DNA of 64,000 bases from Candidatus Magasanikiibacteriota bacterium (GCA_030650025.1 JAUSEN010000025.1:601-64600); one strand, 5' to 3'. Numbered from the stretch's first letter, positions 25,428 through 64,000 are shown. Made by a program: numbers and translations. Notes: generated by a model not told the origin, from the letters alone.

Positions 25428-26535
25428 ATACTTCGCCTTGGCGCAAAATTTTTATTTTGCTATTTAAGACGCTAACTAATGTACTCGGTTTATTTTTTGT
25501 CAAGATGCCATAATCGAGCATAATATCCGGCTGATATTCTTGATTTTTAAATTGCTCGGCGAGTATCTTAGCGTCATAAATCTCACCGGCATCCGATAAA
25601 TTAGCCGATGTGGCCACGAGAGGCCGACCAATTTTTTCGGTAATTGATTTTAGAAGAGGGTGCGTGGTAACGCGCAGGGCGATGGTGCCAGCCTGCGATA
25701 TCACACCTCTCGCGATGCCACTGCCAATCCTCCCCCCCGCCCCCTCCATTGCTATGGAGGGGGGGACGCGATCTCTGTTTTTAAAAACTTCATCTATAAT
25801 TGAATCTAAAACAGCATCTAAATTATTAAAGACCTGTAAATTATCGAATCTAATAACTTTATAGCCAGAATCTACCAACCACTTAGTGCGTAGTCTGTCC
25901 TTTTCTACTTGATCTTTATCCACATAATGCACATCACCATCTAATTCGATAACTAGTTTTGTGTCGGGTTGAAAAAAATCAACTATGTAAGAGCCTACCC
26001 CATGCTGACGTCTAAATCTGATACCGTTCAATCGCTTATCCCGTAAATGATTCCAAAGAATTAACTCGGCTTTCGTTTGATTTTTTCTAAGTTCCCGGCG
26101 TCTTACTAAGCTAGATATGTAACCAGCTATTCGCTCAAATCGAAATTCGCGTCCCCTCCCCTTAGCAAAGGGGAGGGTAGGGTGGGGTCTGGTATCGCCA
26201 TCGGCCAATCCACCCCCTACCCCCTCCATTGCTATGGAGGAGGGGTGACGATACTCCCCCACCACCGTCAAAGCCCCGGGCCAATATTTTTTAGAAATTT
26301 CTTCTAACTGCTTGCTCCACGCTAAATATTTTTTTGCTTCGGCAATGCTCGGCACGACCACTAGGAGCGGCTTCTTAAAATCCCGGCCTTTAATTTTAAA
26401 AATTTTGTCTACGGCTTGTTGGTTAGTGGCATCACACCCGAGACCATACGACGTTTCGGTGGGAAAAACAATAATCTTGCCATTCAGTATATCGACGACG
26501 AGCTCGGCTAAATTACACTCGGTTAAAATTTTCAT
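25411..26535 (-). CDS. tsaC: L-threonylcarbamoyladenylate synthase TsaC/YrdC interrupted in-frame by a DUF559 endonuclease-like domain flanked by palindromic repeat modules.
   Basis: YrdC N-terminal part (FPTETSYGLGCDATN...) and C-terminal part (TIALRVTTHPLL...PLVATSANLS...). Between them lies the DUF559 motif set (TKAELILWNHL...FRRQHGVGSYIVDFF...VIELDGDVH...VIRF). Confidence 0.85.
   Translation of the reverse strand: MKILTECNLAELVVDILNGKIIVFPTETSYGLGCDATNQQAVDKIFKIKGRDFKKPLLVVVPSIAEAKKYLAWSKQLEEISKKYWPGALTVVGEYRHPSSIAMEGVGGGLADGDTRPHPTLPFAKGRGREFRFERIAGYISSLVRRRELRKNQTKAELILWNHLRDKRLNGIRFRRQHGVGSYIVDFFQPDTKLVIELDGDVHYVDKDQVEKDRLRTKWLVDSGYKVIRFDNLQVFNNLDAVLDSIIDEVFKNRDRVPPSIAMEGAGGRIGSGIARGVISQAGTIALRVTTHPLLKSITEKIGRPLVATSANLSDAGEIYDAKILAEQFKNQEYQPDIMLDYGILTKNKPSTLVSVLNSKIKILRQGEVYVDLA
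25728..25770. mobile_element. Intragenic palindromic element module B, copy 2b (tsaC, distal flank of the DUF559 insert).
   Basis: CCTCCCCCCCGCCCCCTCCATTGCTATGGAGGGGGGG. It encodes PPSIAMEGAGG in-frame. Confidence 0.7.
25771..26150 (-). other. Embedded DUF559 (Vsr-like / PD-(D/E)xK-fold) endonuclease domain inside tsaC.
   Basis: About 125-aa segment matching the DUF559 consensus (LR..qT.aE..LW..L......FrRQ...g.YivDF......viElDG..H......D..R...L...G..viRf). Confidence 0.7.
26150..26250. mobile_element. Intragenic palindromic element (modules A+B), copy 2a (tsaC, proximal flank of the DUF559 insert).
   Basis: CCCCTCCCCTTAGCAAAGGGGAGGG ... CCCCTCCATTGCTATGGAGGAGGGG. It encodes PSSIAMEGVGGG...LPFAKGRG. 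Confidence 0.75.
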
Positions 26536-38475: not shown

Positions 38476-39516
38476 TTATAAAATTATGTCAATATCGCCT
38501 AAAATATCGGTACGTAAGATATTCGCCCCAGCACGCTCTAAATGCTTGATAACTCTGGGGCTCGGGTGGCCGAATTTATTTTTCTGGCCAGATGAAATTA
38601 TGGCTGTTCTAGGATTAACTTTGCTTAAAAAATCCTCGCCGCTCGAGCTGTTGCTCCCGTGATGCCCGACTTTTAAGATGTCAGATTTTAGAGTAGGGCA
38701 ACCAGCACTAGACCCCACCCTCGCCCTCCCCTTTGCTAAGGGGAGGGGAATCGTTGGTGTAGTTACTGATGGCTCTCCCCTCCTTAGCAAAGGAGGGGTT
38801 GGGGGAGGTTTGGCTACACTGCAATATTTCTCTATCAACACTTGCTCGAGCGGTTCTTCGGCGTCGCCGGTAAATAAAAAAGTTTTTCCACTCGGCGCCG
38901 TTAATTTAAACACTATTGAATAATTATTACTTTCGGCGTCCGCGAGCGGCAAGCCCAAATCTTCACCCGGCGACAAAAATTCGAGCGTACTGCTCGCGAT
39001 TTCCAGTTTAGCGAATCCATTGACAACCACCTGGCGAGCCCGACTCGCTTCTACAGTGGCATTAAACTCTCGCCAGTATGGATTATATTCTTTGGATTGG
39101 CCATTCAAAATAATAGTGCCCACCTGGTAGCGGCGCAAAACTTCAACGCAACCGCCATAATGGTCTAGATCCGGATGGGTGACTAATAAATAATCAATTT
39201 TTTTGTTAAACATGGGCAAGGCACGGCCTAGTTTAAACAAAATTGTTTTATCCGGGCCACAATCAACTAACATCTTTTCATCATTGCCAAAATTTATTAA
39301 ACTGCTGTCGCCTTGGCCGACATCAAAAAAAGTAACGCGAAATTTTTTATCTTGCTCGTTCTCTTTCTCTAGATAGCTAACAAACAAAAAAATTGTGCTG
39401 GACAACACGCAAATAATTATAAATACCCAAAATAAATTTTTGTTTTTCTGCATAAGCATAGACAGTTTTGTCATTTCGACCGAGCCCGCAGGGCGAGCGG
39501 AGAAATCTCTGTCCAA
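38476..39516 (-). CDS. ComEC-type metallo-beta-lactamase domain protein (membrane-anchored), carrying an in-frame repeat element.
   Basis: N-terminal TM helix and MBL motifs (LLVTHPDLDHYGG; KVGHHGS). Confidence 0.6.
   Translation of the reverse strand: MDRDFSARPAGSVEMTKLSMLMQKNKNLFWVFIIICVLSSTIFLFVSYLEKENEQDKKFRVTFFDVGQGDSSLINFGNDEKMLVDCGPDKTILFKLGRALPMFNKKIDYLLVTHPDLDHYGGCVEVLRRYQVGTIILNGQSKEYNPYWREFNATVEASRARQVVVNGFAKLEIASSTLEFLSPGEDLGLPLADAESNNYSIVFKLTAPSGKTFLFTGDAEEPLEQVLIEKYCSVAKPPPTPPLLRRGEPSVTTPTIPLPLAKGRARVGSSAGCPTLKSDILKVGHHGSNSSSGEDFLSKVNPRTAIISSGQKNKFGHPSPRVIKHLERAGANILRTDILGDIDIIL
38712..38812. mobile_element. Intragenic palindromic element (two A modules), copy 3.
   Basis: GACCCCACCCTCGCCCTCCCCTTTGCTAAGGGGAGGGGAATCG is 41/41 identical to the truB copy. 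A second A' module is CTCCCCTCCTTAGCAAAGGAGGGG. Confidence 0.75.
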
Positions 39517-40317: not shown

Positions 40318-42000
40318 TTATACCGTATCCTGCCGTTTGGCGGCAATGATATAAACCAGAAGGCCATACAAAATTAGCATCACCCACCACTCTATTTTTA
40401 TTTCCACGGCCGCGTATTTTAAATTGGCGAACCATTCGACGACAAACAGAAAAGCGCGGGAGACTAAAACCACAGGCGCGCCAAAAATAATGCCGAGTGG
40501 CAGATAAATTATCCCGCCAATTAGAGACACGAAACCGCCCAGCATGAGAAACGGCACACTCCAGAGCAATAACACGTTAACCACCGGCGCTACGAGTGAA
40601 ATTAACCCAAACTGATACAACATAAGAGGGAGCGTCATGACAATGGCCGAAATTGTTTGTACAAGAATATTACTGCCTTGCAAAAGCACGTCATTGCGAG
40701 GAACGAGCGAAGCGAGCGACGAAGCAATCTCTGTGTTATTGCCAAAAGATTGCTTCGTCCTCCTCCCCGCTACGCGGGTTATTGTCCTCGCAATGACGTC
40801 TGCGAAGACTGGCGATAAATAAACTAACCCAATCGTCGCTAAAAACGAAAGCTGGAAACCGGCGTCATACAATAAAATATAGGGTGAAATTAAAACCATC
40901 AGCGCGGCTGTGAAGCTTAAACCCGGGCCCATACTAGAGAGCCGCCCTAAATATTGCGCGAGTAGTACCAAAGCGCCCATGACAGCCGCGCGCACGACCG
41001 AAGCCGTAGCGCCAGTCATAATTACAAAACAAAACAAGACGAAGAGCGTGGCCCAAAATGCCTGCCGCCGCCAAAGCCCAATTAAAATTAAAATGCTCAT
41101 TAAGGCGCTCGCGATTATCGTAATATTAAAACCAGACACTGCCAAAACATGCGAGAGGCCGGTACGCTGAAAGGATTTTTTTAAACTCTCTGGGAACCCG
41201 CTCGAACCGCCAAACAAAAGCCCATTTATAAAACTATTCTCCGGCTCGGCCCAAATTTGCGAGGCCGTTGAGAAAAATACGCTCCGGACCCAATATATTT
41301 TAGAACCAATAAATTTTACAGGGCCTTCATAATTTTGGCTTATTCCTGAAAGAAAAGTAACACTCCGGACATCGTTGCAAACCGCTTGAATATTGCGACT
41401 CGCCAGATATCGATCGTAACGAAAGTTATTGCTCGCTTTATATTCGGCCGCCTGGCCGGCTGCCTGACGACTCCTCGGTTTTGGTACCTCTACAAAACAA
41501 CCGAAGGCCAGCGTATCGCCGTAAGTAAATTTATTGGCCAGAGATGTTTTTAACAAAATTTTTCCGTTCACGCTCTGACGCACCAATTCTATGCCCTCCC
41601 CCACTATACCAACTGTTTTAACTTTCACAACATATTCAAGGCTACTAATTTTTTCTTCGGGGTACTTGGCCACCTCGCCTGTAATGTTTATTTTCTGACC
41701 ATTATAGTAACAAATATTGTTAAAATTAGCGCAATCAAAACCGGTTACACTAACGCGCCAGAGACCAAACATAAAAAATAAACAGGCCAGTAGAAAAAAT
41801 CTGGCGAAAATATTTTTCCAAAATAAAATTGCGCCGGCCAATACCACAAACAGCCCGGCGTACCAATAAATACCGGGAGCAAGTGTGACGAAATCGGAAA
41901 ATAGCGAACCCGCGGCGATGCCGCCTAAAAATAAAACGCAAAACGCGATGAACGTTTGGCTGGGGGAAATAATTATTTTTTTAAGCCACGCGCGCGGCAT
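40318..42000 (-). CDS. comEC: ComEC/Rec2 family competence channel protein (DUF4131 plus Competence domain).
   Basis: Polytopic. Competence-domain motif GLSHVLAVSGFNITII. Confidence 0.8.
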   Translation of the reverse strand: MPRAWLKKIIISPSQTFIAFCVLFLGGIAAGSLFSDFVTLAPGIYWYAGLFVVLAGAILFWKNIFARFFLLACLFFMFGLWRVSVTGFDCANFNNICYYNGQKINITGEVAKYPEEKISSLEYVVKVKTVGIVGEGIELVRQSVNGKILLKTSLANKFTYGDTLAFGCFVEVPKPRSRQAAGQAAEYKASNNFRYDRYLASRNIQAVCNDVRSVTFLSGISQNYEGPVKFIGSKIYWVRSVFFSTASQIWAEPENSFINGLLFGGSSGFPESLKKSFQRTGLSHVLAVSGFNITIIASALMSILILIGLWRRQAFWATLFVLFCFVIMTGATASVVRAAVMGALVLLAQYLGRLSSMGPGLSFTAALMVLISPYILLYDAGFQLSFLATIGLVYLSPVFADVIARTITRVAGRRTKQSFGNNTEIASSLASLVPRNDVLLQGSNILVQTISAIVMTLPLMLYQFGLISLVAPVVNVLLLWSVPFLMLGGFVSLIGGIIYLPLGIIFGAPVVLVSRAFLFVVEWFANLKYAAVEIKIEWWVMLILYGLLVYIIAAKRQDTV

Positions 42001-43286: not shown

Positions 43287-46200
43287 TTAAACCACCACAC
43301 TCACTAATCTCCCCTTAACATAGATGATCTTCTTCGGCGTTTTACCTTCTAACCACTTGTGAATTTTTTCTGACTCTAGCGCTAATTTTTTGATTTCGTC
43401 TTCGGAAATATCGGGCGCCACTGTTAATTCATCGCGCACTTTGCCGTTGATTTGAATGACGATGGTAATAATTGATTCTTTGGCGAGCTCGGGGTCAAAC
43501 TGTGGCCAGGCCGAATATGCAAGAGGCGTACCGTCACCAAATTTAGACCATAACTCCTCGGCAAGATGCGGCGCAAAAGGTGAAAGTAATTGAATGAGTG
43601 TTGAGTAGTGAGTAGGGAGTAGCGAAATTTGTTTGGTCATTTCATTAACCAATTCCATCAACTTCGCAATCGCGGTATTAAATCGCATCGCTTCAATATC
43701 TTCGGAAACTTTTTTAATGGTTTGGTGAAGAATAGAAAGGGTTTGCCTTTGCGAGACCTCCCCCCACCCCTCCTTTGCTAAGGAGGGGGGAGCGAGCCCC
43801 CTCTCCATCGCAATGGAGAGGGCGGGGGGTGAGGATTCGCCTATCTTCTCCTGCAACCCCCATACCTTCTCTAAAAACCGCCGCACGCCAACTAGGCCGT
43901 TGGTATCCCACATCACGGCCTGATCAAACGGGCCCATAAACATAATATAGCAACGGAAAGCATCGGCCCCGAATTTTTCTATCATTTCGTCCGGGTTAAT
44001 TACGTTGCCGCGCGATTTGCTCATTTTTTCCCCATCCGGCCCCAAAATCATGCCGTGGCTAGTGCGTTTTTTATACGGCTCGCTCGTGGGCACCACGCCA
44101 ATATCAAATAAAAACTGATTCCAAAAACGGGAATATAATAAATGCAAAACAGTGTGTTCCATACCGCCATTGTACCAATCCACTGGAGTCCAGTACCGTA
44201 ATTTTTCTGGCGAAGCAAATTCTTTATCGTTGTTGGGATCAGTATAACGTAGAAAATACCAAGACGACCCGGCCCAGTTCGGCATAGTGTCAGTTTCGCG
44301 TCTCGCCTCTCCACCACAGCGTGGGCAGGTGGTGTTTACCCAACTAGTCATGGTCGCGAGCGGCGACTCGCCCGTGTCGGTGGGCTGGTATTTTGCGACG
44401 GCGGGGAGTTCTAACGGCAATTCACTTTCGGGGAGAGGAACCCAGCCGGTATGTTTACTCTGTAAAAATAAATCTAATAAAACTGGAATTTCAGGTTCAA
44501 CCGTAAAATGTTCGTAGCCAGAAACTGTTTGAACTTGCCAGCCCTCTGGTAACACGTCGTGACCAACGGAATGAACACTTGGATCATCGTTAGAAAAAAT
44601 TGCGTTGCCACTAAAAACCTTATTTTTTATTTTCTGCCAGTCAAGTGGTGCGTTCCAAAACGATTGAACTGTTGAATAATCTCTCTCTGGTTTCTTTTTC
44701 TTTTTAATCTCAAGATCCTCGTCGGTCAATGTTGCCAGCGCGGGCGCAACCAGATAAAGATAACCAATTTTATTTTTTAATTTTTCTAATAAGTGTAAGG
44801 CTGCTTTGCCACCAAGGCTGTGACCAACAATAACATCATCTTCGCCAAGCTGTTTAGCTAGAGGCAATAATTCTTCAAGCCATTTTTCTAATATCGGCCT
44901 ATCGGTAGTGGTCATTGTTGGGGTCATCACCTCGAAGCCTCTTAATTCTAATTCTTTCTTTACCCAAGGTAGCCAATTTTTATCAGCTCTGCCCGTGAAG
45001 CCATGAATAATCAAAACTTTCTGCTTTTTATTTTTACAATTCTCGCAATACACCAGCGGAATCGGCTCGCCCCAGTAATGCTGGCGCGAAAACACCCAGT
45101 CGCGCAGTTTGTAATTTACTTGTCGCTTGCCCCACCCTTTGGCTTCAATGTAATCCATTATTTTATTTTTTGCTTCCATGATCGGCAAGCCGTTGAGAAA
45201 CTCGCTATTTACCATGGCACCAGTTTCTTCCTGAACCTGCTCTGGCTTGGTGATTGGCGATGCATCGCCATCGGGCCCAACCACCACGCGGATAATCTCC
45301 AGGCCCATCTCAATCGCAAATTCAAAATTGCGTAGATCGTGACCAGGAACGCCAACCAGGGCGCCAGTGCCAACATTGCCTAAAACAAAATCACTCACAT
45401 ACATTGGCATCTTAAACCCAGTGAGCTGATTAATCGCATACCAGCCGGTGAACACACCCGTTTTTTTCTTTCCGGCCTGGGCGCGCTCCATATCGGTCTT
45501 TTTCTTTGTTTCGGCAATATATTTTTCGACTTTAACGCGCTCTGGAAACTTTTCTAAATTTTCGATTACAAACTTGCCATCGGGAGCCAGAGCAATAAAC
45601 GTAGCGCCAAAATTTGTATCTGGCCGCGTGGTGAAAACAGTAACCGGCGCGCCCGATCCTTCAACTTCGTATGTAATGTTTATGCCTTCGCTCCGCCCAA
45701 TCCAGTTCTCCTGTTGCACGCGCGCGGGGGTAATATAGTCAACGGTTTTTAAGCCCTCCAAAAGCTTGTCGGCATATTTGGTAATCGCGAGCATCCACTG
45801 GTCTTTATCACGCTGTTCAACCGGCGTGCCACAGCGCTCGCAACAACCATTTATCACTTCTTCGTTCGCGAGGCCGGTTTTGTCCTTGGGGCACCAATTG
45901 ATAGGCAGATTTTTCTTATAGGCCAAGCCGTGCTTAAAAAACTGTAGAAACATTTGTTGTGTCCATTTATAATACGCGGGGTCGGAAGTATTTACCTGGC
46001 GCGACCAATCAAAACTATACCCCAGAGCTTTGAGCTGACGGGTAAAATTCGCAATATTTTTAGCCGTCACCTCCGCGGGCGGCCGACCCGTCTTAATCGC
46101 AAAATTTTCAGTCGGGAGGCCAAAAGCGTCAAAGCCAATGGGATATAAAACATTGTAGCCTTCCATGCGACGCTTCCGGCTTACAATGTCCATGGCCGTA

Positions 46201-46376
46201 AACGGCCTAGGATGGCCGACATGCAGGCCTTCGGCCGATGGGTAAGGAAATTCTATGAGAGAATAAAACTTTTTTTCCGCATGCTTAAAATCTTCCGTAA
46301 CTTCAAAAGTTTTCTGGTCTTCCCAAAATTTCTGCCATTTCTTTTCTATCTTATGAGGATCGTATTTTTTTGGCAT
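43287..46376 (-). CDS. leuS: Leucine--tRNA ligase carrying an inserted alpha/beta-hydrolase domain and an in-frame repeat element.
   Basis: HIGH region (PYPSAEGLHVGH), CP1 editing domain, KMSKS. 1029 aa, against about 860 aa for typical LeuRS. Confidence 0.9.
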   Translation of the reverse strand: MPKKYDPHKIEKKWQKFWEDQKTFEVTEDFKHAEKKFYSLIEFPYPSAEGLHVGHPRPFTAMDIVSRKRRMEGYNVLYPIGFDAFGLPTENFAIKTGRPPAEVTAKNIANFTRQLKALGYSFDWSRQVNTSDPAYYKWTQQMFLQFFKHGLAYKKNLPINWCPKDKTGLANEEVINGCCERCGTPVEQRDKDQWMLAITKYADKLLEGLKTVDYITPARVQQENWIGRSEGINITYEVEGSGAPVTVFTTRPDTNFGATFIALAPDGKFVIENLEKFPERVKVEKYIAETKKKTDMERAQAGKKKTGVFTGWYAINQLTGFKMPMYVSDFVLGNVGTGALVGVPGHDLRNFEFAIEMGLEIIRVVVGPDGDASPITKPEQVQEETGAMVNSEFLNGLPIMEAKNKIMDYIEAKGWGKRQVNYKLRDWVFSRQHYWGEPIPLVYCENCKNKKQKVLIIHGFTGRADKNWLPWVKKELELRGFEVMTPTMTTTDRPILEKWLEELLPLAKQLGEDDVIVGHSLGGKAALHLLEKLKNKIGYLYLVAPALATLTDEDLEIKKKKKPERDYSTVQSFWNAPLDWQKIKNKVFSGNAIFSNDDPSVHSVGHDVLPEGWQVQTVSGYEHFTVEPEIPVLLDLFLQSKHTGWVPLPESELPLELPAVAKYQPTDTGESPLATMTSWVNTTCPRCGGEARRETDTMPNWAGSSWYFLRYTDPNNDKEFASPEKLRYWTPVDWYNGGMEHTVLHLLYSRFWNQFLFDIGVVPTSEPYKKRTSHGMILGPDGEKMSKSRGNVINPDEMIEKFGADAFRCYIMFMGPFDQAVMWDTNGLVGVRRFLEKVWGLQEKIGESSPPALSIAMERGLAPPSLAKEGWGEVSQRQTLSILHQTIKKVSEDIEAMRFNTAIAKLMELVNEMTKQISLLPTHYSTLIQLLSPFAPHLAEELWSKFGDGTPLAYSAWPQFDPELAKESIITIVIQINGKVRDELTVAPDISEDEIKKLALESEKIHKWLEGKTPKKIIYVKGRLVSVVV
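43757..43838. mobile_element. Intragenic palindromic element (A-variant plus B-variant), copy 4, in leuS.
   Basis: CCCCTCCTTTGCTAAGGAGGGG ... CCCTCTCCATCGCAATGGAGAGGG. It encodes SPPALSIAMERGLAPPSLAKEGWG. Confidence 0.7.
44460..45040 (-). other. RBBP9/YdeN-type serine hydrolase (alpha/beta-hydrolase) domain inserted into LeuRS between WGEPIP and RETDTMP.
   Basis: VLIIHGFTGRADKNWLPW...VIVGHSLGGKAAL (GxSxG nucleophile elbow) ...LVAP...NDDPSVH..GYEHF. Confidence 0.65.
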
Positions 46377-47862: not shown

Positions 47863-48966
47863 TTACCGTTGGCATCTCGGGCAAAAATGCGTCCCTCGGC
47901 CAGCAATTTTAATTTTTTTAATTATTTCCTCGCATTTTTTGCACTTTTCTCCGTCTCTGTCATAGACATTTAAAAAATCCGTATAATTGCCTTTTTTACC
48001 ACTCGAATCGAGGAAATTACGAAACGTCGTACCGCGATGTTTAAGGGCGGCGCGCAGAATTTTAGGGATCGCCAAAAATAATTTTTTTTGTTCTAATTTG
48101 GTAACCGCGCCAACGCGCCGATTAGGACGAACGCCGGCGGCAAAGCAAACTTCGTCCACATAAATATTCCCGAGTCCGGCGATAAGTTCTTGGTTTAAAA
48201 GCAGGGCTTTTAGATTTGTATTCTGACGTTTTTTAAAGAGTAAAGAAAAATATGCAAAAGTGAATCCTCCCCCTGCCCCCTCCATTGCGATGGAGGGGGG
48301 TCGCGATTTCCCTCCCCTTCGCAAAGGGGAGGGCGACCCGCCCGAATCGCTACGCGAAGCGTTGCGGGCAGGGGGTGGGGTCTCGATCGGTTCGGGACCA
48401 AATTTTTTTAGCGCTCTCTCGACGTCCTGCGCAGTTGCTAATTTCATGTAACCAAACAAACGCAGGTCGTTAAAAAATAACTCTCCTCCATCTTGGAACG
48501 CAAAGGCGATACGCGTATGCTTATTCGGTAGGCATTCAATGTCGCTTTCCGACAATTTGTGCCCGCCGGCCACGATTTCCACCCCGCCCTTTTTTTCCCG
48601 CTCATCACCGCCATAAAGGCGGGATCCCGCCACGAGGCGGTGATCACCGCCATAAAGGCGGGATCCCGCCACGAGGCGGCGATAAATTAACTGGCCGGTC
48701 ATTTTAAGATGTACTAACAAACTTTGGGCTCCGTGCTTCAATCTAAAAATCATCAGCTTCCCGCGCCGATCAATGTCTCTAAAACTATTGCCCGTGAGAG
48801 CTTGAATAAATTTTGTACTCTGGCCGCCAACGCTCGTTTTTTTATAAACCTTAACTTGAACAATTTTTTTGTTCAAGATTTTATGGCGCAAGTCTTGACG
48901 AATAGTCTCTACCTCTGGTAGTTCGGGCATAGAATTACACTGTATCAAAATTACAAAATTTCGCAA
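47863..48966 (-). CDS. mutM: Formamidopyrimidine-DNA glycosylase (Fpg/MutM) with a tandem 13-aa duplication and an in-frame repeat element.
   Basis: PELPEVE N-terminus and a C-terminal zinc finger (CxxC...CPRC). Confidence 0.85.
   Translation of the reverse strand: MRNFVILIQCNSMPELPEVETIRQDLRHKILNKKIVQVKVYKKTSVGGQSTKFIQALTGNSFRDIDRRGKLMIFRLKHGAQSLLVHLKMTGQLIYRRLVAGSRLYGGDHRLVAGSRLYGGDEREKKGGVEIVAGGHKLSESDIECLPNKHTRIAFAFQDGGELFFNDLRLFGYMKLATAQDVERALKKFGPEPIETPPPARNASRSDSGGSPSPLRRGGKSRPPSIAMEGAGGGFTFAYFSLLFKKRQNTNLKALLLNQELIAGLGNIYVDEVCFAAGVRPNRRVGAVTKLEQKKLFLAIPKILRAALKHRGTTFRNFLDSSGKKGNYTDFLNVYDRDGEKCKKCEEIIKKIKIAGRGTHFCPRCQR
48264..48390. mobile_element. Intragenic palindromic element (B+A plus an extra small hairpin), copy 5, in mutM.
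   Basis: CCCTCCATTGCGATGGAGGGGGG ... CCCTCCCCTTCGCAAAGGGGAGGG ... GACCCCACC. It encodes PSPLRRGGKSRPPSIAMEGAGGG. Confidence 0.75.
48603..48680. repeat. Perfect-to-near-perfect tandem duplication (2 x 39 bp) inside mutM.
   Basis: ATCACCGCCATAAAGGCGGGATCCCGCCACGAGGCGG(T/C)G repeated head-to-tail. It encodes HRLVAGSRLYGGD twice. Confidence 0.85.
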
Positions 48967-49016: not shown

Positions 49017-49394
49017 TTATAAACTTTTTGCCATAAACGCCTTTAATTTTTCTTTGGGCATGCCGCCGAGAGTTTGTTCAGCGACAGCGCCGTTTTTGAA
49101 CATAATAAAAGTAGGAATGCTCATGACGTTATAGGTTTGAGCGGTATTCGGATTCTCATCCACGTTTAATTTACCAATTTTAATTTTGGTTTTATCGAGT
49201 TCGCTAGAGAGCTCGGCAACAATCGGGCCCATCATCCGGCAGGGGCCGCACCAGGGCGCCCAAAAATCCACAAAGACGGGCACAGCCGATTTTAAAACTT
49301 CGGCGTCAAAATTAGCGTCAGTGAAAACATTGTCCATATTATTTAACAAAATTGATTGATTGGATTGATTGTAAGGTGGTTGATATTTTATCAA
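49017..49394 (-). CDS. trxA: Thioredoxin.
   Basis: WCGPC active site; 125 aa. Confidence 0.9.
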   Translation of the reverse strand: MIKYQPPYNQSNQSILLNNMDNVFTDANFDAEVLKSAVPVFVDFWAPWCGPCRMMGPIVAELSSELDKTKIKIGKLNVDENPNTAQTYNVMSIPTFIMFKNGAVAEQTLGGMPKEKLKAFMAKSL

Positions 49395-49404
49395 AATTTT
49401 GGTT

Positions 49405-51423
49405 TTAGCTCAAGACCAGCTTTTTCTCTTTCTTTTCTTCTTTATACGCTTCGAGAACGTCGCCCTCTTCGATTTTTAATTTACCTTCAAACTGCAGGCC
49501 GCATTCACTGCCGCTGGGGATTTCGTTCACGGCCTGTTTGCCGCTCTGAAGCTGGACCAATTTGCCTAGGCCAATAATCTCACCATCACGTTTAACACGC
49601 ACTTTGGCTTCTTTAACCAATTTACCGCTTTCGACGCGAGCGCCGACGATCATAACTTTTTTATCACTGCGGAATATTTGCAAAACTTTGGCGTTACCAA
49701 GTTCGGTTGTGATGAGTTCGGGATTTAGTAATTTCTGCAATTCTTCTTTAAGATCATCGAATAAATCGTAAATAATTTTGTGCTGCCTAAAAATAATATT
49801 ATTTTTTTGAATCATTTCAAAAGCGACCGGAGTAGTGGTGGTATTAAAACCGTAAATAATAGCGCCGCTCGCCATGGCTCTCTGAACATCATCCGCCGTG
49901 ATATTGCCCAGGCCCTTGGCCACGATTTTAACGCCCACTTCTTCGTTTTTAATCTTTTCAATAGAGCCAACGATGGCTTCGAGCGACCCAAGAGTGTCGG
50001 CCTTAATAACCATGTTAAAATTTTTGTGGCCTTCTTCGGCCGCGGCCTCTTGCTGGGCGGCGGAAACGCGCTGTTCGGCGCCGGTTTGAGTGGCGCGTTT
50101 AGCGCGAACGTCCACGACCTCGGCCGAGTCAGCCTGGCTTAAATCCAAGACATCGCCGACTTGAGGGGCAATTTTAAAACCTAAAATGCGAACTGGGGTA
50201 GAAGGAGGGGCGGCGGTAATATCTTTACCATGATGATCTTTGAGCGCGCGGGCTTTGCCATAAATTTCGCCATTAATAACGAGCGGGTCGTTCACGCGCA
50301 AAGTTCCGGTTTGGACCAAAATAGTCGCGACCGGCCCTTGACCCTTATCCACATGAGCTTCAATAACCGTGCCGGCGGCCGGACGAATGGGGTTGGCCTT
50401 GATACTGCCCTCGTTAACAGCCGCGACCGCGAGCAAAGCATCGAGAAGCTTATCAATATTTTTATTTTCTTTGGCCGAGATTTCTACCATGGGAGTGTCG
50501 CCACTCCAGTCCTCGGGAATAATGTTGTGCTGGGCTAAATCGTTTTTAACTTTTTGCACATCGGCTCCAGGTTTATCGATCTTATTTATCGCAACCACGA
50601 GAGGAAGTTTGGCGGCCTTAATAATGTTAATGGCTTCCACGGTTTGCGGCTTGACAGAATCATCGGCCGCTACCACCAAAATGGCGATGTCCGCCACTTT
50701 GGCGCCGCGGCTCCGCATGACTGTGAAAGCTTCGTGGCCGGGAGTGTCAATAAACGTTAGAAGTTTTTTGGCTTTGGTTTTGGGGTCAGTCCAAACAGTT
50801 TGATAAGCGCCGATGTGCTGGGTAATACCACCGGCTTCGGTGGCCACCACATTGGCACTCCGAATGGCGTCGAGTAACTTGGTTTTGCCGTGGTCCACAT
50901 GACCCATAACCACAATCACGGGTGGGCGGGCGTCCGTGGCATCGGCTGTCAAACGCGTTTCGAGCTGGGCCACATGTTCGGAACTGCCTTCACTTTTATT
51001 TTCGGTAACAGCCGCGACCACGCTAAAGCCTAAATCACCGGCAATAATCGTCGCCGTATCACGGTCAATATTTTCGTTTTGGTTTACCAAGATGCCATTT
51101 TTCATTAGTTCCACGATAAGGGCATTCACCGGTGTTTGCAAGATGTCGGCCAGGGCGCGCACGGTTAATTTGTCGGGAAGGGCGATGGTCGCGCCGCTCG
51201 CCTTGCGGGCTTCTTTTTCTTTTAGTTTTTCTTTTTCTTTTTCTTCTTTTTCACGGCGCTCTAAAATAAAACGAATGCGGCGCCAATCTTTTTGGATCTG
51301 GGTGGCTACTTTGTCATCTATTTTTATGGCCTTGGCGCCAATATCAAAACCAAACTCCGGGAGGACAGACAAGAGCTTTTGGGGGTGGATATTTAGCTGG
51401 CGAGCAAGTTCGGAGACATTCAT
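49405..51423 (-). CDS. infB: Translation initiation factor IF-2.
   Basis: G-domain motifs (GHVDHGKT, DTPGH, NKID) and IF-2 C-terminal domains. Confidence 0.9.
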   Translation of the reverse strand: MNVSELARQLNIHPQKLLSVLPEFGFDIGAKAIKIDDKVATQIQKDWRRIRFILERREKEEKEKEKLKEKEARKASGATIALPDKLTVRALADILQTPVNALIVELMKNGILVNQNENIDRDTATIIAGDLGFSVVAAVTENKSEGSSEHVAQLETRLTADATDARPPVIVVMGHVDHGKTKLLDAIRSANVVATEAGGITQHIGAYQTVWTDPKTKAKKLLTFIDTPGHEAFTVMRSRGAKVADIAILVVAADDSVKPQTVEAINIIKAAKLPLVVAINKIDKPGADVQKVKNDLAQHNIIPEDWSGDTPMVEISAKENKNIDKLLDALLAVAAVNEGSIKANPIRPAAGTVIEAHVDKGQGPVATILVQTGTLRVNDPLVINGEIYGKARALKDHHGKDITAAPPSTPVRILGFKIAPQVGDVLDLSQADSAEVVDVRAKRATQTGAEQRVSAAQQEAAAEEGHKNFNMVIKADTLGSLEAIVGSIEKIKNEEVGVKIVAKGLGNITADDVQRAMASGAIIYGFNTTTTPVAFEMIQKNNIIFRQHKIIYDLFDDLKEELQKLLNPELITTELGNAKVLQIFRSDKKVMIVGARVESGKLVKEAKVRVKRDGEIIGLGKLVQLQSGKQAVNEIPSGSECGLQFEGKLKIEEGDVLEAYKEEKKEKKLVLS

Positions 51424-51616
51424 GAGTAAAAAAACTATAAGCCTTATTTAAATTTAGGCTAATCTGCGACTATTATATAGAAGAAACGAGTTTAAGTCAA
51501 TGGAAGGTATGACATGAAAGGCATGCCGGTAGGACATTTTAACTTCCGGTTGACATGAAAGGCACACAGTTTGACAAAATTCTAATACTACGCTATACTA
51601 AGTCGTTCTTTGAAAA

Positions 51617-51690
51617 TAATTGTGGTGGGGGGAAAAATGGCCAAAATATGGCTTTTTTTGTAAAATTCGCCATTTTTCCCCCCACCAATT
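51617..51690. repeat. Perfect 22-bp inverted repeat (AATTGTGGTGGGGGGAAAAATGGC / GCCATTTTTCCCCCCACCAATT) with a 28-nt spacer. It lies just upstream of the high-GC island.
   Basis: Read directly from the sequence. It lies between the infB start and the GC-island ORF. Confidence 0.8.
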
Positions 51691-51750
51691 CACCACAACC
51701 TTCACAAGAGCGCGTAATTCGGCGGGGAACGCTCTAGACAAGGATAGGAC

Positions 51751-52320
51751 ATGAAATGGAGCCACATCAAAGAACTGCTCGTCCGCCTCGTCGGCCGCGA
51801 GCGCAACCCCGGCACCGATGACAACCCCGAACGCGAGCAGAGCAACGACGGCCAGCCCCACGAGGTCGACGTCAGCGAGCTCCTCGGTGCGCTCTTGGGC
51901 GGCCTGGCCCACGTGCGGAGCACGCCGTTCGTGATCAAGATCACCGTCATGGCCGGTGGCGCGGATCTCTCGCAGTCCAACCTCGAGGGCGTTGTCTTCG
52001 ACCAGGAGTCCGACCACCCGTGGCGCACGCGGTGGGTCGTCGGCGGCGGGCTCGTGCTCGCCATCTCGGGCTGTACCACCTGCCAGCGCGAGAAGCTCGA
52101 GGTGGTCAACTTCGCGACCCACGACTGGGCGCTCGCGGAGACCCGGCGCCCGCGCCCGATCCGCATGGATGACGTGGCCAAGCTCACGGCCAAGCTCATC
52201 CAGCGCGGGGAGGACGTGCGCGCCCTCGCCGAGCTCGTGACCGAGGCCCAGCGTCTCTTCACGACGCTGGCCACGAAGGAGGAGCCGGCGCAGGCCACCA
52301 AGAGGCGCGGCCGGCGCTGA
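51751..52320 (+). CDS. Hypothetical protein encoded by a very high-GC foreign island, with codon usage unlike the rest of the window.
   Basis: 189-aa ORF. G/C is strongly enriched at third codon positions in this frame only. The surrounding genome is AT-richer. Confidence 0.55.
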   Translation: MKWSHIKELLVRLVGRERNPGTDDNPEREQSNDGQPHEVDVSELLGALLGGLAHVRSTPFVIKITVMAGGADLSQSNLEGVVFDQESDHPWRTRWVVGGGLVLAISGCTTCQREKLEVVNFATHDWALAETRRPRPIRMDDVAKLTAKLIQRGEDVRALAELVTEAQRLFTTLATKEEPAQATKRRGRR

Positions 52321-52460
52321 ACGGTCGAGGGGCAGTGGTGCGCGACGAAGAACCAATTCGTCGTCGCATCACCTTTTTGCGATAATTGAATCTAAGTTAG
52401 TTAACAACTTAAATTATCATTATCCCAAGAAGGTGACGACGAATTGAAGAAATTATATTA

Positions 52461-52490
52461 ACCCTGCACCGTTCTGGTGCAGGGTTTTTT
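52461..52490 (+). terminator. Rho-independent terminator (CCCTGCACC-GTTCT-GGTGCAGGG plus T6).
   Basis: Perfect 9-bp stem followed by a T-run, downstream of the GC-island ORF. Confidence 0.6.
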
Positions 52491-52552
52491 ATTTGCCCGG
52501 TTACTTGCTTTTTTTTATTTTTGCGATTATTCTAGTGGTATAAATATTTATT

Positions 52553-53320
52553 ATGACCCCTCTCCCTCCTGATTTCCTCCTCATCAACAAACCAGCGGGC
52601 TGGACCAGTTTTGACGTGGTGAATTTTATTAGAAAAAAAGCGCGCGTCGATTCTGGAAATAAAAAAATCCGTGTGGGCCACGCGGGCACGCTTGATCCGT
52701 TCGCCACCGGCCTCTTAATTGTAGGCGTGGGGCGGGAGGCAACTAAAAAATTAGATGAATTTAAAAATTTGCCCAAGACTTATCTGGCCACTATAAAATT
52801 GGGAGCGACCAGTGATACGGGAGATGTGACTGGAGTAATTACCGAGACCCCACCCTCGCCCTCCCCTTTGCTAAGGGGAGGGGAATCGCCCTCCTCCATC
52901 GCAATGGAGGGGGTAGGGGGAGGATTCGCCTTTGGCAAGGAGGGGCTGGGGGAAGTTTCGGAAAAACAAATCAAAAAAATCTTAAAACAATTTCTTGGCA
53001 AGCAAAGGCAAATTCCACCGATGTACTCGGCTAAAAAAATTGGCGGGCAGAGATTGTATAAATTAGCGCGCGCCGGAAAAACTATTAAACGAGAGCCGAG
53101 TGAAATTGAAATTTATAAAATCAAATTGCTCTCTTATGATTGGCCAATTCTAAAAATCGAAGTAACGTGCGGCGCGGGGACGTATATCCGTACTCTGGCC
53201 GAAGACATTGGCAAAAAACTGGGGACCATGGCCTACTGCCAAGAACTAACCCGCACTAAAATTGGTCCATATGCGCTAGAGCAAACCACTGATTTCCGAA
53301 GCAAGTCGCCAGCAGCTTGA
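52553..53320 (+). CDS. truB: tRNA pseudouridine(55) synthase TruB carrying an in-frame repeat element.
   Basis: GHAGTLDPFATGLL catalytic motif. A roughly 37-aa GC-rich insert lies in the middle. Confidence 0.9.
   Translation: MTPLPPDFLLINKPAGWTSFDVVNFIRKKARVDSGNKKIRVGHAGTLDPFATGLLIVGVGREATKKLDEFKNLPKTYLATIKLGATSDTGDVTGVITETPPSPSPLLRGGESPSSIAMEGVGGGFAFGKEGLGEVSEKQIKKILKQFLGKQRQIPPMYSAKKIGGQRLYKLARAGKTIKREPSEIEIYKIKLLSYDWPILKIEVTCGAGTYIRTLAEDIGKKLGTMAYCQELTRTKIGPYALEQTTDFRSKSPAA
52846..52955. mobile_element. Intragenic palindromic element (A plus B plus degenerate A), copy 6, in truB.
   Basis: GACCCCACCCTCGCCCTCCCCTTTGCTAAGGGGAGGGGAATCG ... CCTCCATCGCAATGGAGGGGG. It encodes PSPLLRGGESPSSIAMEGVGGG. 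Confidence 0.75.
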
Positions 53321-53375: not shown

Positions 53376-53552
53376 ATGACAACGAAAGGAAAATGCGGCG
53401 TCCCCAAGATGCCGCGGCAAGCGCCGCGCCCGCGACGTATCCCCCGCTTCTCGCGCCGGGTGATGCCGAAGAAGCGGCTCCGGCGTTTGCGCGCTGAAGC
53501 GCGCAGAAAGCAGCGCCGGAAAAAGGCGAAAAAAGAGAAAGGAAGAGGCTAA
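53376..53552 (+). CDS. Candidate small (58 aa) extremely basic Arg/Lys-rich protein in a GC-rich patch.
   Basis: AGGAGG lies 6 nt upstream of the ATG. Product MTTKGKCGVPKMPRQAPRPRRIPRFSRRVMPKKRLRRLRAEARRKQRRKKAKKEKGRG. It is below the ORF-track length cutoff. Confidence 0.3.
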   Translation: MTTKGKCGVPKMPRQAPRPRRIPRFSRRVMPKKRLRRLRAEARRKQRRKKAKKEKGRG

Positions 53553-58569: not shown

Positions 58570-58644
58570 GGCCCCATCGTCTAATGGTTAGGACATTTCG
58601 CTTTCAATGAAAAAATACGGGTTCGATTCCCGTTGGGGCTACCA
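58570..58644 (+). tRNA. tRNA-Glu (anticodon UUC), CCA encoded.
   Basis: Cloverleaf: acceptor GGCCCCA/UGGGGCU, D-arm GUCUAAUGGUUAGGAC, anticodon loop CUUUCAA, T-arm ACGGGUUCGAUUCCCGU, then ACCA. Confidence 0.85.
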
Positions 58645-62342: not shown

Positions 62343-62423
62343 AGCAATACTAAAGCAACTTCTTGCACAGCTTTCCTAAACATGTTAGGGTAAGTTAAAG
62401 CATTATTATTCTAATTAAAATGT

Positions 62424-64000
62424 ATGATTTTAGCTAAAAAATCGCTTTGGTATAGCATATTAACTTACCTAGTATTAAACACTTTTTTAGTAGGCATCCC
62501 AAGCGCCAACGCCACTATCGAAACCGTCTACATGTCCGCTGATTCTGTGTTGAGCCTGAACGAACCGAACAAGCACTTGGCCTGCAGTATGTACGGAGAC
62601 ATTGGCTCGTGGAACGCGTATGGTGGGCATGCTTACCGCTATATTGCTAAAGCTGATTTGAGTAACATCACTGCTAATCCGGCGCAAATAATTAAAGCGA
62701 GCTTTAATATCGACCGCGTCAGCAACAGCTGGGACGATAATGATAACTATGTCCTGCAACGCGTAACAGCGTCTTGGTCAAATACTGTTAACTGGGGAAA
62801 CCAGCCAAGCAGAGACCCGGGCACGATTGCGCCGACCGGCCCAATCTATGGCATATTTAGATTTGATATTACGCAAGTGGTGAAGAACTGGCTAAGCGAC
62901 CCGAGCAGTAACAACGGCGTAATTATTAAGAAGGTGAGTGAGGATTTAACTTTAGAAAGCAATAAAGGTTCGTTTGCCTGCGCCAGCTATAGCCCGAGTG
63001 GAGGCGAAAGCCGGCCAACTATTACCATAGAATCGTGTACTGAAGACGAATGGACTTGTGGCAGTTGGGGAACTTGCAGTCAAGCCGGCGCCCAAACCAG
63101 AAGCTGTAATAAAAGCGTGGACTGCCCAAATATTGATACTCCGACTAGCCCCGAAACCTCACAATCCTGCACACCACCCACTGCCCCAACTGCGCCGACT
63201 TCGCCCACTTCTCCGTCTACCCCGCCCCCAAGCACTTGCAACAGCGACACCTGGAATTGTAGCGACTGGAGCGTATGCTCGGCTTCTGGCCAGCAAACCC
63301 GCTCATGTAATTTAACGTATGATTGTTCCACGGCGCTGACACCTTCTCCAACTATGGCTCAGGGTTGTACGCCAAGTACTAACAACACGCCGAGTAGCCC
63401 GAGCATTCAGCCAACAACACCAAGTTGCGCGTCTGACACCTGGAACTGTAGCGACTGGAGCGTATGCTCGGCCTCTGGCCAGCAAACGCGCTCTTGTAAT
63501 TTAACGTATGACTGCGCGACCGCTTTGACCCCGGTTCCAGCGATTGCCCAAGGCTGCACGCCACCGAGCTCTGCTCCGGCCACGCCAACATCACCGACTG
63601 CGCCAACGTCCCCGACAGCTCCGATCGATAACACCTGCACGGCCGACACCTGGGCCTGTGGCGACTGGGATTACTGCTCGCTCTCGGGCGTGCAAGGGCG
63701 CACGTGCACTCGCACCTATAACTGCCCGAATGCCGAGACTCCCCCGCCAGCCACTTACCAATATTGCCAGGCGCCAGTACAACCGAAACCGGTTGACCCG
63801 AGTAGCCCAGACGCGGCCGCTAACCAAGACACGATTATTAAAGCCACGGTAAAATTGGTTTGCCCGGTGAGTGACACTATGGCCAGCCAAGGGAGCGGCA
63901 CGATAATAGACCAGAATGGCACAATCCTAACGAACAAACACGTCATTAACCAAACTGCTGGCTGTTTTGTGGGGTTTATCGATAAATATAGCGACGAACC
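62424..64000 (+). CDS. Secreted multidomain protein, partial (continues beyond the window): signal peptide, DNRLRE-like domain, 4 Cys-rich modules with PT linkers, then the start of a trypsin-like (S1) peptidase domain.
   Basis: Open frame from the ATG at 62424 to the window end. It is not in the ORF track because it has no stop. Modules C.SDTWNCSDWSVCSASGQQTRSCNLTYDC. TNKHVI His-box of S1 proteases. Confidence 0.7.
   Translation, partial: MILAKKSLWYSILTYLVLNTFLVGIPSANATIETVYMSADSVLSLNEPNKHLACSMYGDIGSWNAYGGHAYRYIAKADLSNITANPAQIIKASFNIDRVSNSWDDNDNYVLQRVTASWSNTVNWGNQPSRDPGTIAPTGPIYGIFRFDITQVVKNWLSDPSSNNGVIIKKVSEDLTLESNKGSFACASYSPSGGESRPTITIESCTEDEWTCGSWGTCSQAGAQTRSCNKSVDCPNIDTPTSPETSQSCTPPTAPTAPTSPTSPSTPPPSTCNSDTWNCSDWSVCSASGQQTRSCNLTYDCSTALTPSPTMAQGCTPSTNNTPSSPSIQPTTPSCASDTWNCSDWSVCSASGQQTRSCNLTYDCATALTPVPAIAQGCTPPSSAPATPTSPTAPTSPTAPIDNTCTADTWACGDWDYCSLSGVQGRTCTRTYNCPNAETPPPATYQYCQAPVQPKPVDPSSPDAAANQDTIIKATVKLVCPVSDTMASQGSGTIIDQNGTILTNKHVINQTAGCFVGFIDKYSDE

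What the first reader, a model, noticed from the sequence alone, without database searches (positions are those of the whole stretch)
51617..52497. Very high-GC foreign island with its own ORF, flanked by a perfect 22-bp inverted repeat and a terminator
Bases about 51760-52330 are far more G+C-rich than the rest of the window. They are dominated by GCC/GAC/CTC/CGC codons, and third positions are almost all G/C in the plus frame of ORF 51751-52320. This matches actinobacterial-style codon usage. The island is preceded by a perfect 22-bp inverted repeat (51617-51690). It is followed by short inverted repeats (GCGACGAAGAACCAATTCGTCGTCGC ... GACGACGAATTG) and a clean terminator (52461-52490). Because codon usage is unameliorated, this is either a very recent horizontal acquisition from a high-GC donor or an assembly or contamination chimera. 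The 189-aa product has no motif I can recognise.
Basis: seen in the sequence. Interest (0 to 1): 0.7.

Follow-up and report, generated by a model that had tools for sequence, protein, structure and literature searches.

The report
Foreign high-GC orphan gene insertion
A single 189-codon gene with the codon style of a very G+C-rich organism sits between two housekeeping genes (infB and truB) of a 46% G+C Magasanikbacteria (CPR) genome; it is most likely a real, very recent horizontal acquisition of a gene with no known relatives, which is a common kind of event.

Summary
Window 51777-52347 is 71% G+C against 44-46% around it, the highest value in the window. ORF 51751-52320 (+) has GC1/GC2/GC3 of 0.70/0.46/0.93, a real coding signature of a high-GC genome. 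The hairpins and the terminator exist. They are separate stem-loops, not terminal inverted repeats of one element, and the "perfect 22-bp" repeat is 21/22 (19 contiguous pairs).

The window is a Candidatus Magasanikbacteria MAG. The gene lies between divergent infB and truB, an adjacency kept in all ten relatives examined. Seven have only about 19-225 nt there. Three carry other, unrelated orphan ORFs. None has this gene.

A separately built Logan contig is identical across both junctions, so an assembly chimera is unlikely.

The protein matches nothing credible: 1.84 billion representative proteins, Pfam, NCBIfam, PADLOC, PHROGs, PDB, phages, plasmids, viral and metagenome contigs. Structure models are low-confidence. 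The donor is therefore unidentified, and "actinobacterial" is plausible but unproven.

The gene appears to be set up for expression: a near-consensus promoter, a 5' hairpin, a Shine-Dalgarno sequence, structured 3' hairpins and a strong terminator.

Verdict: a genuine, recent single-gene HGT islet of unknown function in a variable intergenic spot. It is a new member of a known kind, of modest interest.

The parts
51472..51500 (-). Near-consensus sigma-70-type promoter (TTGACT-17-TATAAT) facing infB (start codon at 51423)
   Evidence: 11 of 12 matches
51510..51564 (+). Two exact 14-nt direct repeats TGACATGAAAGGCA (51510-51523 and 51551-51564), 41 nt apart, between the divergent promoters. A 79% copy overlaps the ORF start (51747-51760). 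Possibly an operator; function is inferred only.
   Evidence: family D2
51571..51599 (+). Near-consensus promoter TTGACA-17-TATACT in AT-rich, host-like DNA, oriented toward the high-GC ORF
   Evidence: 11 of 12 matches; 7 promoter-like sites in the region against 0.9 expected
51623..51687 (+). Strong stem-loop (19 perfect pairs plus extension, 21-nt loop) that would lie near the 5' end of the predicted transcript. It is single-copy.
   Evidence: 5'UTR fold z -4.4; no second copy in metagenome contigs
51740..51744 (+). Shine-Dalgarno-like AAGGA, 6 nt before the ATG
   Evidence: read from the sequence
51751..52320 (+). 189-codon ORF with GC3 0.93. The product is GenBank MDO8626687.1, 'hypothetical protein Q7K39_04545', with no homologues. 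Predicted to be soluble: pI 7.0, acidic disordered N-terminal region, beta core, two C-terminal helices, basic tail KRRGRR.
51777..52347 (.). High-GC segment by change-point fit (0.713 vs 0.441). The first ~9 codons and the RBS are compositionally host-like or intermediate.
   Evidence: 3 of the 12 A/T-ending codons are in codons 2-8
52342..52367 (+). GC-rich hairpin just after the stop codon, GCGACGAAGAA/TTCGTCGTCGC. Its 3' arm can pair instead with 52435-52446.
52354..52446 (+). 93-nt quasi-palindrome. The outer stem is a perfect 12 bp (52354-52365/52435-52446). The inner AT-rich hairpin is 52369-52436.
   Evidence: I2, I4, I12; 76% self-complementarity over ~100 nt; z -5.9
52460..52495 (+). 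Intrinsic terminator (11-12 bp stem, T-run) that ends the ORF's transcript before truB (start 52553)
   Evidence: 3' region fold z -7.0

Best explanation
This is a genuine, very recent horizontal acquisition. About 0.6-0.7 kb of DNA from an unidentified organism or mobile element of about 70% G+C carries one complete protein-coding gene. It is inserted into the divergent infB/truB intergenic region of a Candidatus Magasanikbacteria (CPR/Patescibacteria) chromosome.

That region is compact in the nearest relatives and variably occupied by unrelated orphan genes in others, so it behaves as a permissive spot for small gene gains.

The gene appears to be set up for expression. A near-consensus host-type promoter lies upstream. 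A stable stem-loop lies close to the predicted 5' end of the transcript and may act as a 5' stabiliser (inferred). A Shine-Dalgarno sequence and ATG follow. After the stop codon come structured 3' hairpins and a strong intrinsic terminator that shields truB from read-through.

Inferred, not shown: entry by DNA uptake followed by illegitimate recombination. A ComEC competence channel is encoded 10 kb away, and no integrase, transposase, terminal repeats or target duplication are present.

The product is a 21-kDa soluble orphan protein whose biochemical role cannot be assigned. My guess, at low confidence, is a lineage-specific accessory or conflict-type protein, or a still-neutral passenger.
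For: - Compositional outlier with correct coding periodicity, GC3>GC1>GC2 = 0.93/0.70/0.46, p 1e-22.
- Host genes have GC3 of 0.34-0.60.
- The MAG is identified as Ca. Magasanikbacteria.
- trx-infB(-)/truB(+)-rny synteny is conserved in relatives.
- The infB-truB gap is about 19 nt in the closest relative L119 (infB 80% identical), about 100 nt in L121, and 87-225 nt in L003, L005, L009 and L010. It is 846-1328 nt in L002, L004 and L007, which hold unrelated ORFs of host-like GC with no Pfam family.
- No relative encodes the protein.
- A separately built Logan contig is identical across both junctions and breaks only at a true repeat.
- Promoter and terminator.
- Structured UTRs.
- ComEC at 40321-42000 and housekeeping neighbours without mobility genes.
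- Natural competence through ComEC is shown in Saccharibacteria (PMC10633639), and HGT is reported as common in aquifer Patescibacteria (PMC12455944).
Against: - No donor or homologue was found in about 15 billion proteins or in the phage, plasmid, viral and metagenome collections. Transfer is therefore inferred from composition and absence in relatives, not from phylogeny.
- The nearest relative has TruB only 69% identical, so no empty site of the same species defines the junctions.
- Read coverage was not examined.
- The Logan contig may derive from the same reads as the MAG.
- Expression and the uptake route are inferred.
- Protein function is unknown: AF2 pLDDT is 45-52 and fold searches are incoherent.
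Confidence: 0.75

Rival explanations
1. Assembly or contamination chimera: a fragment of a co-occurring high-GC genome was spliced into the CPR contig by the assembler or by chimeric library molecules.
For: - The compositional step is abrupt.
- The gene is a singleton seen in one sample only.
- Read-level support could not be checked.
Against: - A Logan contig built with a different pipeline is 100% identical over 3633 nt, including both junctions, and ends only at a real 31-nt or longer repeat.
- The flanks are conserved neighbours, so two switches about 600 nt apart would have to return to exactly the same locus.
- No sequence repeated elsewhere in the window lies at either junction.
- The insert is one intact ORF placed between a promoter with SD and a terminator.
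Confidence: 0.06
2. Cargo of a small mobile element with hairpin ends, such as an integron-type cassette with an attC-like palindrome, an IS200/IS605-type palindrome-associated element, or a MITE carrying a passenger gene.
For: - Strong hairpins lie on both sides of the ORF, including a 93-nt quasi-palindrome right after it.
- A 12-nt perfect complementarity links the GC-rich end to the AT-rich side (I4).
- The whole 1.13-kb spacer is extra relative to the closest relative.
Against: - The two flanks share no terminal inverted repeat, and the only direct repeat between them is a weak 19-nt, 74% match (D5).
- No second copy of either hairpin exists in the window.
- The 5' hairpin has no second copy in the metagenome or viral collections; 65 single chance hits all lack a second arm.
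- The 3' arm gave one isolated 20-mer hit in viral contigs, which was not examined further.
- I saw no RYYYAAC/GTTRRRY attC core sites when reading the sequence.
- No integrase or transposase was found among the neighbours scanned.
- Inserts at the same spot in relatives have no comparable hairpins.
Confidence: 0.08
3. Not a foreign protein gene at all: either a native gene with odd composition, or a G+C-rich structured non-coding RNA in which long ORFs arise by chance.
For: - Long open frames occur in three frames of the segment, and 16% of shuffles reach 189 codons.
- The ranking among G/C-ending synonymous codons mostly matches the host's: GCC>GCG, CTC>CTG, CGC>CGG, GGC>GGG, ACC>ACG.
Against: - Strong three-base periodicity in the order expected for coding DNA, p 1e-22.
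- No Rfam family reaches its gathering score.
- The body folds only marginally better than shuffles, z -2.2.
- No native gene in the window has GC3 above 0.67.
- No 400-nt window exceeds 0.63 G+C in 123 kb of relatives' loci.
- The other frames have no Pfam hit and junk-like composition.
Confidence: 0.03

Closest known systems
Compositionally atypical, horizontally acquired 'genomic islet' or ORFan gene (Lawrence-Ochman type unameliorated acquisition)
   Same: - Sharp G+C and GC3 departure from the host.
- Absent from relatives at a syntenic site.
- A single accessory gene of unknown function.
   Different: - The contrast is extreme (GC3 0.93 vs about 0.5).
- No tRNA gene, integrase or flanking direct repeats.
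- No homologue identifies the donor.
Natural-transformation-mediated gene gain in Patescibacteria (ComEC-dependent competence in Saccharibacteria, PMC10633639; HGT survey of aquifer Patescibacteria, PMC12455944)
   Same: - The host is a CPR bacterium that encodes ComEC.
- The insert is small, with no mobility genes.
   Different: - Competence has not been shown for Magasanikbacteria.
- The route is inferred here.
- The abstract of that survey says most individual transfers were between Patescibacteria, whereas this donor must be high-GC.
Integron gene cassette (ORF plus attC)
   Same: One ORF followed closely by a long imperfect palindrome.
   Different: - No attC core sites.
- No intI found.
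- No cassette array.
- The gene has a promoter immediately upstream.
Palindrome-associated transposable elements / MITEs
   Same: Subterminal hairpins on both sides of a short segment.
   Different: - The hairpins are unrelated to each other.
- The element is single-copy.
- No target-site duplication.
- No transposase.

Membership tests
Horizontally acquired genomic island/islet | Base composition and codon usage deviate from the host genome | tested here: met
   0.71 vs 0.465 G+C; GC3 0.93 vs 0.34-0.60 for host genes
Horizontally acquired genomic island/islet | Absent from the syntenic site in related genomes | tested here: met
   Ten relatives keep the infB/truB adjacency and none has the gene. 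Seven have only ~19-225 nt there.
Horizontally acquired genomic island/islet | Phylogenetic affinity of the gene to a distant donor lineage | tested here: inconclusive
   No credible homologue exists to build a tree. The three weak hits are repeat-inflated matches to unrelated CARDB, integrase-SAM and Ig-repeat proteins.
Horizontally acquired genomic island/islet | Classical island hallmarks: adjacent tRNA gene, integrase, flanking direct repeats | tested here: not met
   The only tRNA is at 58570-58641. No mobility domains were found in the neighbours. The only flank-to-flank direct repeat is a weak 19-nt, 74% match.
Integron gene cassette | attC site with inverse-core RYYYAAC and core GTTRRRY at the ends of the palindrome | tested here: not met
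   The palindrome 52354-52446 begins CAATTCGTCGTC and ends GACGACGAATTG. I saw no core sites on reading the sequence.
Integron gene cassette | Neighbouring intI integrase and an array of cassettes | tested here: not met
   The neighbours are trx, infB, truB, RNase Y, Fpg, an inositol monophosphatase-family protein and LeuRS. There is a single ORF only.
Transposon / IS / MITE | Terminal inverted repeats and a target-site duplication | tested here: not met
   The inverted repeats are local hairpins. No left-right pairing was found.
Transposon / IS / MITE | Multiple copies in the genome or in other genomes | tested here: not met
   Both flanks are single-copy in the 64-kb window. The 18-mer of the 5' hairpin gives only single chance matches without a second arm. 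The rest of the genome was not available.
Structured non-coding RNA (Rfam families) | Match to a covariance model at its gathering score | tested here: not met
   No family matches in 51400-52560 at gathering score. The sub-threshold hits are generic hairpin matches.
Assembly chimera | Junctions lack independent support or coincide with repeats shared between genomes | tested here: not met
   The Logan contig spans both junctions with 100% identity. No in-window repeat lies at either junction. Read mapping is not possible with these tools.

The most novel reading that the evidence does not exclude
The infB/truB divergent spacer of Magasanikbacteria may be a recurrent gene-capture and expression site. 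It is empty in some lineages and holds different orphan genes in others. In this genome it may have just captured a gene taken up from a high-GC neighbour, possibly the physical host of this presumed epibiont. If so, the unameliorated gene would be a direct molecular pointer to the otherwise unknown host. The 12-nt perfect complementarity across the 3' GC/AT boundary would then be a scar of the joining reaction.
Probability: 0.15. Interest if true: 0.55.

Novelty: new member of a known kind. Interest (0 to 1): 0.3.

Why it matters
Horizontal gene gain in CPR/Patescibacteria is already documented, so the event itself is not surprising. Three things make this case useful.

- **Clean example.** It is an unusually clear case of an essentially unameliorated acquisition in a streamlined genome, with promoter, 5' hairpin, RBS and terminator visible.
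- **Variable site.** It marks a spacer between two core translation genes that turns over orphan genes across Magasanikbacteria.
- **Possible host clue.** If the donor could be found in the same sample, it might hint at which high-GC organism this uncultivated bacterium lives with.

The protein has no relatives among about 15 billion sequences, so it adds to the pool of orphan genes and says nothing yet about function.

Tried and rejected
**Homology searches, all negative**
- Pfam, NCBIfam, PADLOC and PHROGs for the 189-aa product. The only result was a PHROG hit at E 0.19.
- Word-indexed search of 5.8 billion proteins returned only the protein itself.
- Exhaustive phmmer against 1.84 billion representatives gave the protein itself plus three repeat-inflated hits to CARDB, Phage_int_SAM_1 and Ig-repeat proteins. 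I judged these spurious.
- tblastn and blastn against phages and plasmids gave no match.
- Back-translated pattern scans of viral and metagenome contigs gave nothing.
- phmmer against PDB gave only a designed repeat protein with sub-threshold stretches.
- Pfam on the three alternative frames gave nothing.

**Structure, uninformative**
- Two single-sequence AlphaFold2 runs gave pLDDT 45 and 52.

**Structured-RNA idea, rejected**
- Rfam gave nothing at gathering score.
- The body fold z-score is -2.2.

**Mobile-element idea, rejected**
- No terminal repeats or target duplication.
- The hairpins are single-copy.
- No hairpins flank the inserts in relatives.

**Searches for closer data**
- Search for a same-species empty site failed. 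The best TruB relative in the 5.8-billion-protein collection searched is 69% identical.
- A literature search for the SRA run found nothing.
- Donor assignment from codon usage was judged not diagnostic.

Full report
**What is there**

- 0.71 in the best 570-nt window, with an SD of 0.047 across windows.
- 0.7175 in 400-nt windows (z 4.7), against 0.6175 for the next highest peak elsewhere.
- A two-change-point fit places the high-GC block at 51777-52347, 0.713 inside against 0.441 outside.

ORF 51751-52320 (+) is 189 codons. Its G+C at codon positions 1, 2 and 3 is 0.70, 0.46 and 0.93. That is the order expected of a real gene from a genome of about 70% G+C, and the heterogeneity is highly significant (chi-square 100.9, p 1e-22).

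ORF length alone proves nothing. Three overlapping frames are open, and 16% of shuffles of the segment reach 189 codons. The periodicity singles out the + frame. The antisense frame that shares the wobble position has GC1 0.45 and GC2 0.69, which is the wrong order. The alternative frames hit no Pfam family.

Host genes in the window have GC3 of 0.34-0.60, and no ORF of 120 aa or more exceeds 0.67. In 123 kb of loci from related genomes, no 400-nt window exceeds 0.63 G+C.

**The repeats**

The 5' inverted repeat is real. Its arms are 51623-51644 and 51666-51687, with 19 contiguous pairs, then one mismatch and two more pairs, and a 21-nt loop. It is 21/22, not perfect.

Downstream of the stop codon there are three features:
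- a GC-rich hairpin (52342-52367);
- a long AT-rich hairpin (52369-52436), enclosed by a perfect 12-bp outer stem (52354-52365/52435-52446);
- a textbook intrinsic terminator (52460-52486 plus a T-run).

The 3' region folds far better than shuffles (z -7.0). The 5' leader gives z -4.4.

These are independent local stem-loops. The two flanks share no inverted repeat. The only direct repeat between them is a weak 19-nt, 74% match. The title's picture of an island "flanked by an inverted repeat" is therefore misleading.

**Genomic context**

The product is identical to GenBank MDO8626687.1, a hypothetical protein of a Candidatus Magasanikbacteria MAG on a 114-kb contig.

The neighbours are housekeeping genes. 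They are LeuRS, an inositol monophosphatase-family protein, Fpg, thioredoxin and infB on the minus strand, then the island, then truB and RNase Y on the plus strand. I found no integrase or transposase among the ten neighbours scanned. A ComEC competence protein lies at 40321-42000. The only tRNA gene is 6 kb away.

The trx-infB(-)/truB(+)-rny arrangement is conserved in Magasanikbacteria relatives fetched by TruB similarity. In this window the infB-truB spacer is 1129 nt. In the relatives it is:
- about 19 nt in the closest one, L119 (infB 80% and RNase Y 89% identical);
- about 100 nt in L121;
- 87-225 nt in L003, L005, L009 and L010;
- 846-1328 nt in L002, L004 and L007.

In those last three, the spacer holds different ORFs of host-like G+C with no Pfam family. 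They show no similarity to the island or its flanks.

So the spacer is a variable spot, and this particular gene is unique to this genome. No same-species genome exists in the collection searched, because the best TruB relative is 69% identical. The exact junctions therefore cannot be defined by comparison.

**Is it an artefact?**

A Logan assembly contig from run SRR13727527, built with a different pipeline, is 100% identical to window 49242-52874. It crosses both junctions. Its right end falls in a stretch of 31 nt or more that is repeated at 38710. That assembly therefore broke at a true repeat yet ran through the island boundaries.

A chimera would also need two template switches about 600 nt apart that return to the same conserved locus, leaving one intact ORF between a promoter and a terminator. 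I rate this at about 6%. I could not examine read depth, and the Logan contig may come from the same reads as the MAG.

**Is it an RNA or a mobile element?**

RNA: no Rfam family reaches its gathering score. The ORF body folds only slightly better than shuffles (z -2.2).

Mobile element:
- There are no terminal inverted repeats, target duplication or recombinase.
- Neither flank recurs in the window.
- An 18-mer from the 5' hairpin gives 65 single matches in metagenome contigs and 2 in viral contigs. None has the second arm, so I treat them as chance matches.
- A 20-mer from the 3' arm gave one isolated viral-contig hit, which I did not examine further.
- The palindrome lacks attC core motifs (read from the sequence).
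- Inserts in relatives have no comparable hairpins.

**The protein**

All sequence searches came back empty or spurious:
- Pfam, NCBIfam and PADLOC gave nothing, and PHROGs gave one hit at E 0.19.
- The 5.8-billion-protein search returned only the protein itself.
- The exhaustive phmmer search of 1.84 billion representatives added three hits at E 4e-8 to 4e-4. They owe their scores to 6-8 repeated short stretches in CARDB-repeat, Phage_int_SAM_1-repeat and Ig-repeat proteins, each matching a different part of the query. I treat them as spurious.
- Phages and plasmids, viral and metagenome contigs and PDB sequences gave nothing credible.

Single-sequence AlphaFold2 models are poor, with pLDDT 45 and 52. 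They suggest an N-terminal helix, an acidic disordered stretch, a six-strand beta meander and two C-terminal helices. Fold searches are incoherent.

The protein is soluble-looking, with pI 7.0, no tyrosine, and a basic KRRGRR tail. Its function cannot be assigned.

**Donor**

Codon choice is CTC 16 vs CTG 3, CGC 13 vs CGG 4, GGC 11, GCC 10 vs GCG 6, with 177 of 189 codons ending in G or C.

From my own knowledge of codon tables, this fits CTC-preferring high-GC lineages, including some Actinobacteria. It is not diagnostic. With no homologue, "actinobacterial" remains a guess. A phage or other mobile element of a high-GC organism would fit the orphan status equally well.

**How it probably works (shown versus inferred)**

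Shown:
- a near-consensus promoter TTGACA-17-TATACT at 51571-51599 in AT-rich DNA, pointing at the ORF;
- a divergent TTGACT-17-TATAAT promoter for infB;
- AAGGA 6 nt before the ATG;
- a strong terminator before truB.

Inferred:
- The transcript starts near 51606, so the 51623-51687 stem-loop lies close to its 5' end. A 5' mRNA stabiliser is a plausible role.
- Two exact TGACATGAAAGGCA repeats lie between the promoters, with a 79% copy over the start codon. They could be an operator.
- The left compositional boundary lies between about 51690 and 51777. Three of the twelve A/T-ending codons are in codons 2-8. This could reflect normal 5' codon bias, or a junction inside the ORF that recruited a local start codon.
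- The perfect 12-nt complementarity between the GC-rich end (52354-52365) and AT-rich DNA 70 nt downstream may be a scar of the joining event or part of a regulatory alternative fold.
- The most economical route is DNA uptake and illegitimate recombination. ComEC is present and mobility genes are absent. ComEC-dependent competence has been demonstrated in Saccharibacteria (PMC10633639), and HGT is reported as frequent in aquifer Patescibacteria (PMC12455944).

**Verdict**

The chimera reading is unlikely but not excluded without reads. The actinobacterial origin is unproven.

This is a new example of a known kind of event: an unameliorated single-gene islet carrying an orphan gene. Interest is modest at 0.3. 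The most novel reading still open is that this spacer is a recurrent gene-capture site and that the gene came from the organism's high-GC host. I put that at about 15%.

Noticed in passing
window 22811-22836, 26153-26178, 38715-38808, 48309-48334, 52850-52945: A family of short G/C-rich palindromic repeats with core CCCTCCCCTT-NNNN-AAGGGGAGGG gives 11 half-site matches against 0.9 expected. By coordinates, the copies fall inside long ORFs listed. In truB the repeat adds an in-frame ~29-aa segment (LLRGGESPSSIAMEGVGGGFAFGKEGLGE) that five close homologues lack. The closest homologue has a shorter SPLLRGG module at the same place. Fpg is also lengthened at a copy. This resembles Rickettsia-palindromic-element-like in-frame insertions, here in a CPR genome.
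   Followed up: partly
window 43290-46376 (-): The leucyl-tRNA synthetase (1029 aa) carries an inserted serine-hydrolase / alpha-beta-hydrolase domain (PF06821, residues 454-619, E 1.6e-15) between the editing domain and the anticodon-binding domain.
   Followed up: no
window 53376-53552 (+): A local G+C peak of 0.62-0.645 lies just after truB. It holds a 58-codon ORF with a GGAGG ribosome-binding site, encoding an extremely Arg/Lys-rich peptide (MTTKGKCGVPKMPRQAPRPRRIPRFSRRVMPKKRLRRLRAEARRKQRRKKAKKEKGRG). It has no Pfam family.
   Followed up: no
window 51424-52552 compared with L002 4900-6000, L004 5155-6000, L007 4673-6000, L119 1530-1548: The divergent infB/truB spacer ranges from about 19 nt to 1.3 kb among Magasanikbacteria. 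Where it is long, it holds unrelated lineage-specific orphan ORFs, including two paralogous hydrophobic (possibly membrane) proteins in L002. It looks like a small hot spot of gene turnover next to core translation genes.
   Followed up: partly
window 62420-64000 (+): An ORF that runs off the window end encodes repeated Cys-rich modules (…CxxDTWNCSDWSVCSASGQQTRSCNLTYDC…) separated by Pro/Thr/Ser linkers. The region has elevated G+C (0.595). I read this from the sequence only.
   Followed up: no
window 52536-52555: truB appears to have an extended -10 promoter (TGgTATAAA at 52536-52544) only ~9 nt before its ATG at 52553, which suggests a leaderless or near-leaderless mRNA. I read this from the sequence; the scan tool did not call it.
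   Followed up: no
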